From: a virus
Reading direction: 5' to 3' (one strand)
Virus record (IMG/VR): IMGVR_UViG_3300045988_068671
Coordinates: 20,518 to 84,517 of that record
Length of the DNA: 64,000 bases
Shown: in pieces, positions 28,925-29,485 of the stretch
Numbering within the stretch: the first letter of the stretch is position 1
How the letters are laid out: the number at the start of each line of letters is the position of its first letter
Position numbers and translations under genes: made by a program
The notes under the pieces: generated by a model
The model's input: the letters and a program-made list of their open reading frames with translations, nothing else
Database searches by the model: none
Told to the model about the DNA's origin: nothing

Positions 28925-29485
28925 ATGAAAAGAACTATCGAAATTGAATGCCCAGATGGCTATAAGCCTATCTACAATGCTAAAACAGGTAATGTTGAAA
29001 TTGTTCCAGAGAATATTATGGGACGAATAAAGACCTATGAGGACGCTAGAGACTATCTTGGGTACTTATTTAATAGTGAAATCCATTACACTGAATCTGT
29101 AAAGGCTCTAGCTAAGTTGCAAACAATTCTGGATGCGCTGAACGAAAAGCACAAGTTCAATCTGCTGACTGGAACTGTATGGTATCCTTGGGTTCGCTTC
29201 TTCAGAATGAAGTCTGTGCCAAAGGATGCAGAGGTCATTGGACACTTCCGTTATCAGGGCGAGAAATTCGCGCTGGTGGGCGGCGGCGCGGATTATGGCC
29301 GCGATGCGGGTCTTGGCTCTTTCTATTCTGGCGATGGCGTCGGCGCTGCCGCTTCCTTTGTCGGGATGCTTGCGTGCAAATCTGAAGAGATTGCCAAATA
29401 CGTATCAACCCAGTTTGGAAAGCTAGTGTTCGATGCTTGTTTTGCAAGACATTTCAAGGGTGAAGAATTTGAATGGCTTGACTAA
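28925..29485 (+). CDS. DGR target protein 2 (186 aa) with C-terminal VR2
   Basis: C-terminus ALVGGGADYGRDAGLGSFYSGDGVG parallels target 1; VR2 inside. Confidence 0.65.
   Translation: MKRTIEIECPDGYKPIYNAKTGNVEIVPENIMGRIKTYEDARDYLGYLFNSEIHYTESVKALAKLQTILDALNEKHKFNLLTGTVWYPWVRFFRMKSVPKDAEVIGHFRYQGEKFALVGGGADYGRDAGLGSFYSGDGVGAAASFVGMLACKSEEIAKYVSTQFGKLVFDACFARHFKGEEFEWLD
29272..29365 (+). repeat. DGR variable repeat 2 (VR2), remote and on the opposite strand to TR/RT
   Basis: about 25 differences at TR adenines plus 1 other; GC-rich island. Confidence 0.75.

What the first reader, a model, noticed from the sequence alone, without database searches (positions are those of the whole stretch)
29272..29365. 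Second, remote DGR target on the opposite strand, 28 kb away
Positions 29272-29365 inside the plus-strand gene 28925-29485 align with the same TR. About 25 TR-adenine substitutions are seen, and only one other mismatch. The encoded segment ALVGGGADYGRDAGLGSFYSGDGVG is paralogous to the VR1 segment LLVGGGAGSGGNAGLGSFHSYDDVG. Both VRs are sharp GC-rich islands in an AT-rich genome. This produces spurious multi-frame ORFs at 29179-29447, as expected if A-to-N mutagenesis has enriched G/C. One RT/TR thus appears to diversify two proteins encoded on opposite strands, one of them a small 186-aa protein in the tRNA-rich arm.
Basis: seen in the sequence. Interest (0 to 1): 0.9.

Follow-up and report, generated by a model that had tools for sequence, protein, structure and literature searches.

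The report
Second remote DGR target in phage
One reverse-transcriptase mutator (a diversity-generating retroelement) in this large gut phage rewrites two genes, a tail protein next to it and a small non-structural protein 28 kb away; the arrangement is real and active, and relatives of the same small protein are already known to be rewritten this way in other gut Bacteroidota phages.

Summary
Window 29272-29365 (+) aligns without gaps to the template repeat (TR, 708..611, minus strand). There are 25 mismatches at TR adenines and one elsewhere (P about 8e-17).

It is an active target, not a fossil:
- Across 39 related genomes, 29 of 30 TR-adenine columns vary, while the flanks are invariant.
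- Many genome pairs are identical over 463 nt of the gene yet differ at 11-22 of 88 VR2 positions.
- Non-adenine TR variants are copied into both VR1 and VR2 in three genomes.

The kind is already known. The 186-aa protein is a homologue of the distal second target described for Quimbyvirus/LoVEphage (Benler 2021). I showed that homologues in the cultured phages PV4-TP1 and Versailles are also remote, adenine-specific second targets.

What is new here:
- The host genome is a roughly 190-kb, TAG-recoded, crAss-related phage. Published DGR surveys of such phages list only tail-fibre targets.
- The same small-protein family recurs as a target across unrelated phages.

Its function, probably intracellular binding in phage-host conflict, is inferred and not shown.

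The parts
29272..29365 (+). VR2, the second (remote) variable repeat. The mutagenised tract runs about 29275-29358, and the transferred tract reaches at least 29362. The 3' end 29359-29365 (TGTCGGG) is the short IMH-like boundary.
   Evidence: 25 mismatches at TR adenines and 1 elsewhere against the TR; 29 of 30 A columns vary across 39 genomes. TR markers at columns 8, 18, 30, 45 and 93 are copied into VR2. Column 95 (A in the TR) is G in every VR.
28925..29485 (+). Target gene 2: a 186-aa protein with no Pfam domain, family phrog_11581. It has no in-frame TAG, and by inspection no signal peptide or membrane segment. VR2 encodes residues 117-147.
   Evidence: phrog_11581, E 3.4e-14; 831 homologues; 204 clusters at 50% identity, all small proteins; model pLDDT 91.9; ten positions each take 12-15 different residues.
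611..708 (-). Template repeat (TR), lying between target gene 1 and the RT gene. It has 30 adenines and 10 AAY codons in the VR reading frame.
   Evidence: It is 98/98 identical in 19 of 28 related genomes, while both VRs differ in every genome.
812..909 (-). VR1, the adjacent variable repeat at the 3' end of the tail-protein gene.
   Evidence: 21 mismatches to the TR, all at TR adenines (P 1e-14).
787..2604 (-). Target gene 1: a 605-aa tail protein with 6 in-frame TAG codons read as Gln.
   Evidence: phrog_5302 tail protein, E 3.4e-84.
1..487 (-). N-terminal 162 codons of the DGR reverse transcriptase, cut by the window edge, with one in-frame TAG.
   Evidence: phrog_1423 reverse transcriptase, E 1.5e-44; full-length 430-aa RT in relatives that are 99% identical, with GNYLSQ and YADD motifs. 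RVT_1 at 71.5 bits against a cut-off of 29.6.
18655..18727 (-). Suppressor tRNA (anticodon CTA). It is needed to read the in-frame TAG codons of the RT and of target gene 1.
   Evidence: TAG-rich minus-strand late block.
21072..21142 (+). Second suppressor tRNA (anticodon CTA).

Best explanation
Window 29272-29365 is a genuine, currently used second variable repeat (VR2) of the diversity-generating retroelement at the left end of the window.

**Proposed mechanism.** The TR (708..611) is transcribed. The DGR reverse transcriptase (487..1 and beyond the window) copies it into cDNA, misincorporating at template adenines. The cDNA then replaces either VR1, in the adjacent tail-protein gene, or VR2, 28.6 kb away on the other strand, in independent homing events. 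The 3' limit of transfer lies between TR columns 93 and 95, at a short GC-rich IMH-like end (TGTCGGG in both VRs, TGTCGAG in the TR).

**Effect on the protein.** Ten AAY codons, plus TAT, GAC and AGC codons, are rewritten in a loop-rich segment (residues 117-147) of a 186-aa protein.

**Shown:**
- the A-specific pattern;
- population-level hypervariation confined to TR-adenine sites;
- copying of TR marker bases into both VRs;
- a DGR-type RT in relatives.

**Inferred:**
- the cDNA intermediate and how the remote site is recognised;
- the function. The protein is most likely a non-structural, cytoplasmic binding protein made from the TAG-free, presumably early, accessory block. Its diversified surface would be used in phage-host conflict, for example by binding variable host defence or takeover targets. 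It is not a virion receptor-binding protein.

**What the confidence covers.** The figure given applies to the core claim, that VR2 is a real and active second DGR target. The functional reading alone deserves about 0.5.
For: **Pattern in the window**
- 25 of 26 mismatches fall at TR adenines (P 8e-17).
- VR1 and VR2 differ from each other at 15 TR-adenine sites and one other, so they were written independently.

**Variation across related genomes**
- Across 39 genomes, 29 of 30 A columns vary (455 minor-allele cells). Among 64 non-A columns there are 35 such cells, mostly from two outlier genomes. The flanks are invariant.
- In 28 genomes with their own TR, VR2 shows 602 A mismatches and 54 non-A. 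Most genomes have exactly one, at the 5' edge.
- Non-A TR variants are mirrored in both VRs: columns 18, 30, 45 and 93 in L008 and L016, and column 8 in L005.
- Twenty-four genome pairs have 0 differences in 463 nt outside VR2 but 11-22 differences in the 88 nt inside it.
- There are 120 distinct VR peptides among 121 sequences, and the ten hypervariable residues are exactly the ten AAY codons.
- Complete genomes carry three copies of the repeat and never a fourth.

**The enzyme**
- The RT of relatives has GxxxSQ and YADD motifs and passes the RVT_1 threshold.

**Non-structural role**
- The gene is TAG-free and sits in the plus-strand block with tRNAs, Band_7/SPFH, a tRNA-ligase CPD domain and NAMPT. 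The TAG-rich minus-strand block holds portal, TerL, the tail protein and the RT.
- Homologues in PV4-TP1 and Versailles are also remote A-specific second targets. They lie among methyltransferase, recombination and replication genes.
- Benler 2021 (PMC8008677) reached the same placement for Quimbyvirus.
Against: - The window's own VR2 carries one non-A mismatch (29314), so at least one change came after, or apart from, the last homing event.
- In one relative (L033) VR2 has decayed: 12 non-A mismatches, a 3-nt deletion, and TR markers not copied. Targeting can therefore be lost.
- The IMH-like end is only about 7 nt. There is no TR/VR homology beyond it and no significant hairpin downstream of either VR (z about -0.6). 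Target recognition therefore differs from, or is weaker than, the Bordetella phage BPP-1 model.
- No Avd accessory gene was found.
- The RT catalytic region lies outside the window.
- No expression, virion-proteome or binding data exist, so the non-structural, conflict-related role rests on gene position only.
- The Versailles homologue is annotated 'tail protein' in its record.
Confidence: 0.88

Rival explanations
1. VR2 is a relic in this particular genome. It was written by the DGR in the past but is no longer targeted, and the population diversity reflects old events or recombination between lineages.
For: - One non-A mismatch at 29314.
- L033 shows that VR2 can decay while VR1 stays in step with the TR.
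- The IMH-like end is very short and no hairpin is present.
Against: - There is only one synonymous non-A change in 64 non-A sites.
- Genome pairs identical over the remaining 463 nt of the gene differ at 11-22 VR2 sites.
- TR marker bases are present in VR2 of L005, L008 and L016.
- The RT N-terminus is intact in the window.
Confidence: 0.08
2. The resemblance comes from paralogy or gene conversion between the two target genes, with VR1 as donor, and not from direct TR-templated homing into VR2.
For: - VR1 and VR2 share many A>G outcomes, giving Gly codons at residues 119-121, 125, 129, 131 and 140.
- They are 84% identical.
Against: - In every genome VR1 and VR2 differ from each other almost only at TR-adenine sites. 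Conversion would make them identical.
- Outside the 39-residue segment the proteins are not detectably related.
- The shared Gly codons are explained by selection at AGC/GGC positions, which show low entropy.
Confidence: 0.02
3. VR2 is a true DGR target, but the 186-aa protein is a virion component: an accessory receptor- or glycan-binding protein that works with the diversified tail protein in host recognition.
For: - Known phage DGR targets are mostly tail proteins.
- The VR segment is shared with the tail protein.
- The Versailles homologue is labelled 'tail protein'.
- Lack of a signal peptide is normal for virion proteins.
Against: - In three unrelated phage groups the gene lies far from the structural module, among replication, recombination, methyltransferase and tRNA-repair genes.
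- In two of the three groups (this window and PV4-TP1) it is also on the opposite strand to the structural genes.
- Here it is TAG-free, while every structural gene examined is TAG-rich.
- The 'tail protein' label probably reflects only the VR-segment similarity.
- There are no structural matches to tail proteins.
Confidence: 0.2

Closest known systems
Quimbyvirus / LoVEphage DGR with two targets (Benler et al. [quoted passage not shown]
   Same: - One RT and one TR serve a tail-module target plus a distal target on the opposite strand in a non-structural accessory region.
- The distal target belongs to the same protein family. PV4-TP1 gp58 is 92-93% identical to the LoVEphage protein, 34.7% identical to the window protein, and falls in the same HMM family.
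- I verified 17 A-only mismatches for PV4-TP1 gp58.
- Band_7 and tRNA-ligase-type genes lie nearby in both.
   Different: - Those are temperate phages of about 72 kb using the standard code. This one is a crAss-related phage of about 185-192 kb with TAG recoding of late genes and of the RT itself.
- The TR sequences are unrelated at the DNA level.
- No methyltransferases lie next to the gene here.
- Benler et al. describe the distal target as a C-type-lectin protein. Here the fold search did not find that fold.
Zeta crAss-like phage DGRs (PMC12386605)
   Same: - Genome size, a tRNA block and a CTA suppressor tRNA.
- Amber codons inside the RT gene, a GxxxSQ RT and no Avd in most members.
- A tail-fibre target next to TR and RT.
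- The window TerL is 26-29% identical to crAss-like TerLs.
   Different: - That survey reports only tail-fibre targets, or several TR-VR pairs within the cassette in two phages. It reports no remote target in the tRNA/early block.
- Whether this window belongs to that group was not formally tested.
Bordetella phage BPP-1 DGR (Mtd / TR / Brt / Avd), the experimental prototype
   Same: - The order target gene, TR, RT.
- Adenine-specific TR-to-VR changes and AAY-rich TR codons.
- A VR at the 3' end of a tail-fibre gene (VR1).
   Different: - BPP-1 has a single target, a long IMH (a 14-bp GC tract plus 21 bp) with a downstream hairpin or cruciform, and Avd.
- Here there are two targets 28 kb apart, a boundary of about 7 nt, no significant hairpin and no Avd found.
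Non-adjacent and multi-target DGRs in general (Wu et al. 2018, PMC5758913; Treponema denticola; tentaclin-type two-target phage DGRs, PMC10743442)
   Same: One TR serves several VRs. Non-adjacent targets within 50 kb are stated to be common in phage-associated DGRs.
   Different: - Those second targets are mostly C-type-lectin surface or adhesin-type proteins.
- Tentaclins carry C-lec plus Ig domains. Here the target is a small single-domain protein with no recognisable domain.

Membership tests
Diversity-generating retroelement (DGR) | TR/VR pair whose differences are confined to TR adenines | tested here: met
   VR2 has 25 A and 1 non-A mismatches; VR1 has 21 A and 0 non-A. P is 8e-17 and 1e-14 respectively.
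Diversity-generating retroelement (DGR) | TR conserved while VR varies among related genomes, with variation confined to adenine positions | tested here: met
   The TR is identical in 19 of 28 genomes. In VR2, 29 of 30 A columns vary. There are 120 distinct VR peptides among 121 sequences.
Diversity-generating retroelement (DGR) | One-way transfer of information from TR to VR, shown by non-A TR variants copied into the VR | tested here: met
   TR variants in L005, L008 and L016 appear in both VR1 and VR2. L033 is the exception: its VR2 has decayed.
Diversity-generating retroelement (DGR) | DGR-clade reverse transcriptase (RVT_1 with the GxxxSQ motif and YxDD) | tested here: met
   The window holds only residues 1-162 (phrog_1423, E 1.5e-44). 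Relatives 99% identical over that part have a 430-aa RT with GNYLSQ at residue 189 and YADD at 220. RVT_1 scores 71.5 bits. The motif region itself lies outside the window.
Diversity-generating retroelement (DGR) | IMH at the 3' end of the VR, with IMH* in the TR and a downstream hairpin or cruciform | tested here: inconclusive
   All VR1 and VR2 copies have TGTCGGG where the TR has TGTCGAG. The marker at column 93 is transferred and column 95 is not. There is no homology beyond that point and no significant DNA hairpin (z -0.66 and -0.60).
Diversity-generating retroelement (DGR) | Avd accessory protein | tested here: not met
   There is no ORF between VR1, the TR and the RT. The 129-aa ORF downstream of the RT in a relative has no Pfam match. 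Avd is common in DGRs but not universal.
Diversity-generating retroelement (DGR) | VR displayed on a C-type-lectin (or Ig) fold | tested here: not met
Diversity-generating retroelement (DGR) | TR adenines concentrated in AAY codons, at first and second codon positions | tested here: met
   The TR has 10 AAY codons, and 27 of 30 adenines sit at codon positions 1 or 2.
Distal second-target protein family of Quimbyvirus/LoVEphage (phrog_11581) | Sequence homology over most of the protein | tested here: met
   phrog_11581 at E 3.4e-14 over residues 25-176. tblastn to PV4-TP1 gp58 gives 34.7% identity over 72% of the query, E 7e-6. gp58 is 92-93% identical in LoVEphage records.
Distal second-target protein family of Quimbyvirus/LoVEphage (phrog_11581) | Carries a VR matching a TR that lies beside a tail-protein target elsewhere in the genome | tested here: met
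   This holds in the window, in PV4-TP1 (17 A-only mismatches) and in Versailles (15 A mismatches plus 1 T>G shared with VR1).
Distal second-target protein family of Quimbyvirus/LoVEphage (phrog_11581) | Neighbourhood of counter-defence genes (methyltransferases, tRNA ligase, nuclease) | tested here: inconclusive
   The neighbours here are Band_7/SPFH, a tRNA_lig_CPD domain protein, an AAA ATPase and, 27 kb away, NAMPT. No methyltransferase was detected among the ten neighbours scanned. Most neighbours have no known function.
Zeta crAss-like phages (Crassvirales-related) | TerL and genome-wide relatedness to the group | tested here: inconclusive
   TerL is 26-29% identical to crAss-like TerLs and 42-46% identical to unannotated faecal contigs. 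Related contigs are 185-193 kb. Amber recoding and a DGR fit Table 1 of PMC12386605. No phylogeny was made.

The most novel reading that the evidence does not exclude
The small protein family (phrog_11581) is a dedicated scaffold for DGR diversification that does not have a C-type-lectin fold. Unrelated Bacteroidota phages (Quimby/LoVE-like, Versailles-like and giant TAG-recoded crAss-related phages) have each coupled it to the same TR that diversifies their tail fibre. Only the roughly 39-residue VR module is shared between the two scaffolds. The protein would act inside the infected cell as a programmable binder in counter-defence or host takeover, a phage-encoded analogue of an adaptive recognition molecule.
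Probability: 0.3. Interest if true: 0.8.

Novelty: new member of a known kind. Interest (0 to 1): 0.55.

Why it matters
**Why the second target matters.** Phage DGRs are usually read as host-range devices acting on tail fibres. A second target that is consistently non-structural means the mutator also serves a process other than adsorption.

**What this work adds.**
- The same small protein family is that second target in at least three unrelated groups of gut Bacteroidota phages. One of them is a very large TAG-recoded crAss-related lineage common in human gut samples, with 831 homologues in public data.
- Automated DGR tools and the published survey of the zeta crAss-like phages this window resembles missed it. 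Likely reasons are the in-frame TAG codons in the RT and the 28-kb distance to the target.
- The family has no known fold or function. This makes it a defined candidate for experiments on what a phage gains by diversifying an intracellular protein.

**Practical consequence.** VR2 is a hypervariable site that can break assemblies and inflate protein-cluster counts.

Tried and rejected
- **Close relatives in GenBank phages.** Megablast of 26000-34000 against GenBank phages found no close relative, so the phage could not be named.
- **Hairpin or cruciform downstream of the VRs.** DNA folding of the 61 nt spanning each VR 3' end gave ordinary energies (z about -0.6). I do not claim a BPP-1-like structure.
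- **Fold of the VR1 domain.** The model of the exact 220-aa C-terminal fragment was poor (pLDDT 58, VR part below 50). The fragment probably cuts the domain at the in-frame TAG. It was not used for any fold claim.
- **afdb50 fold library.** It was not available. BFVD returned only uncharacterised phage proteins.
- **Distant family members in viral contigs.** The search with the family alignment failed for lack of conserved stretches.
- **Context of distant members.** Look-ups for P0155 and P0166 gave a 2-kb contig and a contig end with no RT within 10 kb. They say nothing either way about DGR association.
- **Third target.** A pattern scan for the non-A skeleton of the TR found at most three copies per genome, so a third target is rejected.
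- **Gene conversion from VR1.** Rejected because VR1 and VR2 are never identical within a genome.
- **Avd downstream of the RT.** None recognised.

Full report
**1. The observation**

The repeat finder, run on the whole window without prior information, returns two relevant repeats. One is an inverted repeat between 814-907 and 29272-29365 (94 nt, 84% complementary). The other is a direct repeat between 611-708 and 812-909 (98 nt, 79%).

Read on the minus strand, the left end of the window has the classical DGR order:
- a long gene ending at 787, with VR1 at 909..812;
- an intergenic, A-rich copy at 708..611, which is the TR;
- an ORF starting at 487 that runs off the window edge and matches reverse transcriptases (phrog_1423, E 1.5e-44).

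In an ungapped three-way alignment the TR has 30 adenines in 98 nt.
- VR1 differs from the TR at 21 positions, all at TR adenines.
- The other VR2 mismatch is a synonymous C>T at 29314.

The probability of such a concentration on the 30 A sites is 8e-17 for VR2 and 1e-14 for VR1.

VR1 and VR2 differ from each other at 16 internal positions, 15 of them at TR-adenine sites. The two were therefore written separately.

**2. Is VR2 really used?**

A pairwise pattern in one genome could be a fossil, so I looked at relatives. The 186-aa protein has 831 homologues in the large protein collection and 38 full-length loci in IMG/VR, on contigs mostly 185-193 kb long.

*Variation across genomes.* In the DNA alignment of the 39 genes, 29 of the 30 TR-adenine columns vary (455 minor-allele cells). 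The 64 non-adenine columns hold 35 such cells, mostly from two divergent loci. The 15-20 nt on either side are essentially invariant.

*Recent change.* Twenty-four genome pairs have no difference in the 463 nt of the gene outside VR2, yet 11-22 differences in the 88 nt inside it.

*Independent protein set.* In 120 cluster representatives, 120 of 121 VR peptides are distinct. Ten residues (121, 123, 124, 127, 134, 136, 137, 141, 143, 145) each take 12-15 amino acids. These are exactly the ten AAY codons of the TR.

*Each genome against its own TR.* I fetched the RT/TR loci of the same contigs.
- The TR is identical to the window's in 19 of 28 genomes.
- VR2 against the genome's own TR gives 602 adenine and 54 other mismatches. 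Most genomes have a single one, at the 5' edge.

*Marker transfer.* Where the TR itself carries non-adenine variants, they reappear in both VR1 and VR2. This holds for C>T at columns 18, 30, 45 and 93 in L008 and L016, and for T>C at column 8 in L005. It is the signature of one-way TR-to-VR transfer into both targets.

*Counter-example.* In L033 the same four TR variants are in VR1 but not in VR2. That VR2 also has a 3-nt deletion and 12 non-adenine mismatches, so targeting of VR2 has been lost there.

*Number of copies.* A scan of all viral contigs for the non-adenine skeleton of the repeat finds at most three copies per genome (TR, VR1, VR2). There is no third target.

**3. Anatomy and mechanism**

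*The RT.* Relatives that are 99% identical over the part held in the window have an RT of 430 aa. It has the DGR-type GNYLSQ motif and YADD and passes the Pfam RVT_1 threshold. In one relative the Q of the SQ motif is encoded by TAG, which supports TAG = Gln.

*Recoding.* The window carries two CTA-anticodon tRNAs.
- The minus-strand block is full of in-frame TAG. It holds portal, TerL, tail proteins, target 1 and the RT.
- The plus-strand block from about 25 kb onward is almost TAG-free. It holds the tRNAs, target 2, Band_7/SPFH, a tRNA-ligase CPD-domain protein, an AAA ATPase and NAMPT.

*The 3' boundary.* TR column 95 is the only adenine column that never varies. It is G in every VR1 and VR2 (TGTCGGG) and A in the TR (TGTCGAG). 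A marker at column 93 is transferred. The 3' boundary of transfer therefore lies between columns 93 and 95, and this short GC-rich end plays the part of the IMH.

*Differences from the BPP-1 model.* Beyond that boundary the TR, VR1 and VR2 share no sequence. DNA folding shows no significant hairpin. No Avd gene is present between the elements or recognisable downstream of the RT. How a site 28 kb away is recognised with so little shared sequence is not explained by the BPP-1 model and remains inferred.

**4. The target protein**

The 186-aa protein has no Pfam domain and no sequence relative in the PDB. By inspection it has no signal peptide or membrane segment.

An exhaustive HMMER search gives 204 clusters at 50% identity, nearly all small proteins of 170-215 aa.

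With 58 diverse members as the alignment, AlphaFold2 gives a confident model (pLDDT 91.9, pTM 0.85). The VR-encoded residues 117-147 form the end of a strand plus a loop-rich stretch. This stretch has the lowest confidence in the model (79-89).

The expected C-type-lectin fold was not found:
- Foldseek against PDB gives nothing below E 0.58.
- BFVD returns only uncharacterised phage proteins, some from 'CrAss-like virus sp.'.

Profile-profile comparison of this family with the family of the VR1 tail-protein C-terminus aligns 39 columns only, which is the VR segment (probability 96%). The two targets therefore share the diversified module but not, detectably, the scaffold.

I could not check the fold of the VR1 domain because its model was poor.

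The gene just upstream (28350-28814) shares the N-terminal 85 residues of the family but lacks the VR part.

**5. Comparison with what is known**

*Same family in other phages.* The only hit of the protein in GenBank phages is gp58 of the cultured Phocaeicola phage PV4-TP1. That phage has a tail protein, TR and RT cassette at 21-24 kb. gp58 lies 15 kb away on the other strand, among methyltransferases, a tRNA ligase, a Holliday-junction resolvase and a band-7 protein.
- Nucleotides 393-504 of gp58 match that phage's own TR with 17 mismatches, all at adenines.
- The same protein is 92-93% identical in LoVEphage records and in BI-TP1.
- A 38%-identical homologue sits in the recombination/replication module of Bacteroides phage Versailles. 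It matches that phage's TR with 15 adenine mismatches, plus one T>G that both VRs share against the TR.

*Published descriptions.*
- Benler et al. 2021 (PMC8008677) described this arrangement for Quimbyvirus: two variable repeats, the second distal, on the opposite strand, in a 'defense-related island'.
- Wu et al. 2018 (PMC5758913) state that non-adjacent targets within 50 kb are common in phage-associated DGRs.

The kind of feature is therefore known, and the window protein belongs to the already noticed family.

*What I did not find described.* I found no report of this remote target in large TAG-recoded crAss-related phages. The 2025 survey of zeta crAss-like phages matches this window in genome size, tRNA block, CTA suppressor, amber codons in the RT and a GxxxSQ RT. 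It lists only tail-fibre targets (PMC12386605). The window's TerL is 26-29% identical to crAss-like TerLs. I did not test formal membership of the zeta group.

**6. Verdict**

- The core interpretation is strongly supported: one TR and RT serve two targets on opposite strands, and the remote one is active.
- The structural expectation (C-type lectin, paralogous domains) is not supported.
- The element is a new member of a known kind.

Its interest lies in three points:
- the same small, fold-unknown protein family recurs as a non-structural DGR target in unrelated gut phages;
- DGR surveys of crAss-related phages have missed it;
- it raises the open question of what an intracellular hypervariable phage protein binds.

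The functional reading (binding in phage-host conflict) is inference from gene position only.

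Noticed in passing
window 18655-18727 (-), 21072-21142 (+); minus-strand genes 787-14455: There are two suppressor tRNAs with anticodon CTA. The late/structural block is heavily TAG-recoded; the portal gene 7909-10119, for example, has 34 in-frame TAGs. The plus-strand block from about 25 kb is almost TAG-free. In relative L065 the Q of the RT's GxxxSQ motif is itself a TAG codon, which supports TAG = Gln.
   Followed up: partly
window 28350-28814 (+): The 154-aa gene just upstream of the VR2 gene, separated from it by tRNA-His, shares the N-terminal roughly 85 residues of the VR2 protein family (hhalign probability 89%). 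It has an unrelated C-terminus with no VR. It looks like a non-diversified paralogue or a domain-swapped relative.
   Followed up: partly
L033 (VR2 locus) and L066 (TR locus), contig IMGVR_UViG_3300045988_058615: In this relative VR1 follows four non-A variants of its TR but VR2 does not. VR2 also has a 3-nt deletion and 12 non-A mismatches. This is a natural example of loss of the remote target while the adjacent one stays active.
   Followed up: yes
L068 (TR of contig 056908); L040 (contig 058617): Two relatives have odd templates. In L068 the 3' third of the TR carries G or T at six positions that are A elsewhere, as if a VR had been copied back into the TR. In L040 the TR has a 1-nt insertion and the RT motif reads GNYLLQ instead of GNYLSQ, which may indicate a decaying element.
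   Followed up: no
window 29314: The single non-A mismatch of the window's VR2 (T where its TR has C) is the base carried by the TR of other genomes (L008, L016, L033). It could be a leftover of recombination with such a lineage rather than a point mutation.
   Followed up: no
window 30480-32990 (+) and 55047-55874 (+): A membrane protein (30480-30998) is followed by a 657-aa Band_7/SPFH protein (Pfam E 1e-19) with a long Ala/Glu/Lys-rich repeat region (repeat families D1 and D5 at 31600-32500). A second band-7-like gene (phrog_200) lies at 55047-55874. A band-7 gene also lies near the homologous DGR target in PV4-TP1.
   Followed up: no
window 56729-58291 (+); 34577-34984 (+): The window encodes a nicotinamide phosphoribosyltransferase (phrog_448, E 1e-181) and a protein with a tRNA-ligase cyclic-phosphodiesterase domain (Pfam E 5e-8). 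Both are of types associated, from general knowledge, with countering NAD-depleting and tRNA-cleaving host defences.
   Followed up: no
window 26092-49958: Twenty-five of the 27 tRNA genes lie on the plus strand within 24 kb, interspersed with small genes of unknown function. They cover most amino acids, including three tRNA-Met-type genes, two Tyr, two Cys and two Gly.
   Followed up: no
L122 10181-10762 (Bacteroides phage Versailles, WAK79127.1): The homologous protein is annotated 'tail protein' in the GenBank record although it sits in the recombination/replication module. The label probably comes from similarity of its VR segment to DGR-targeted tail proteins.
   Followed up: partly
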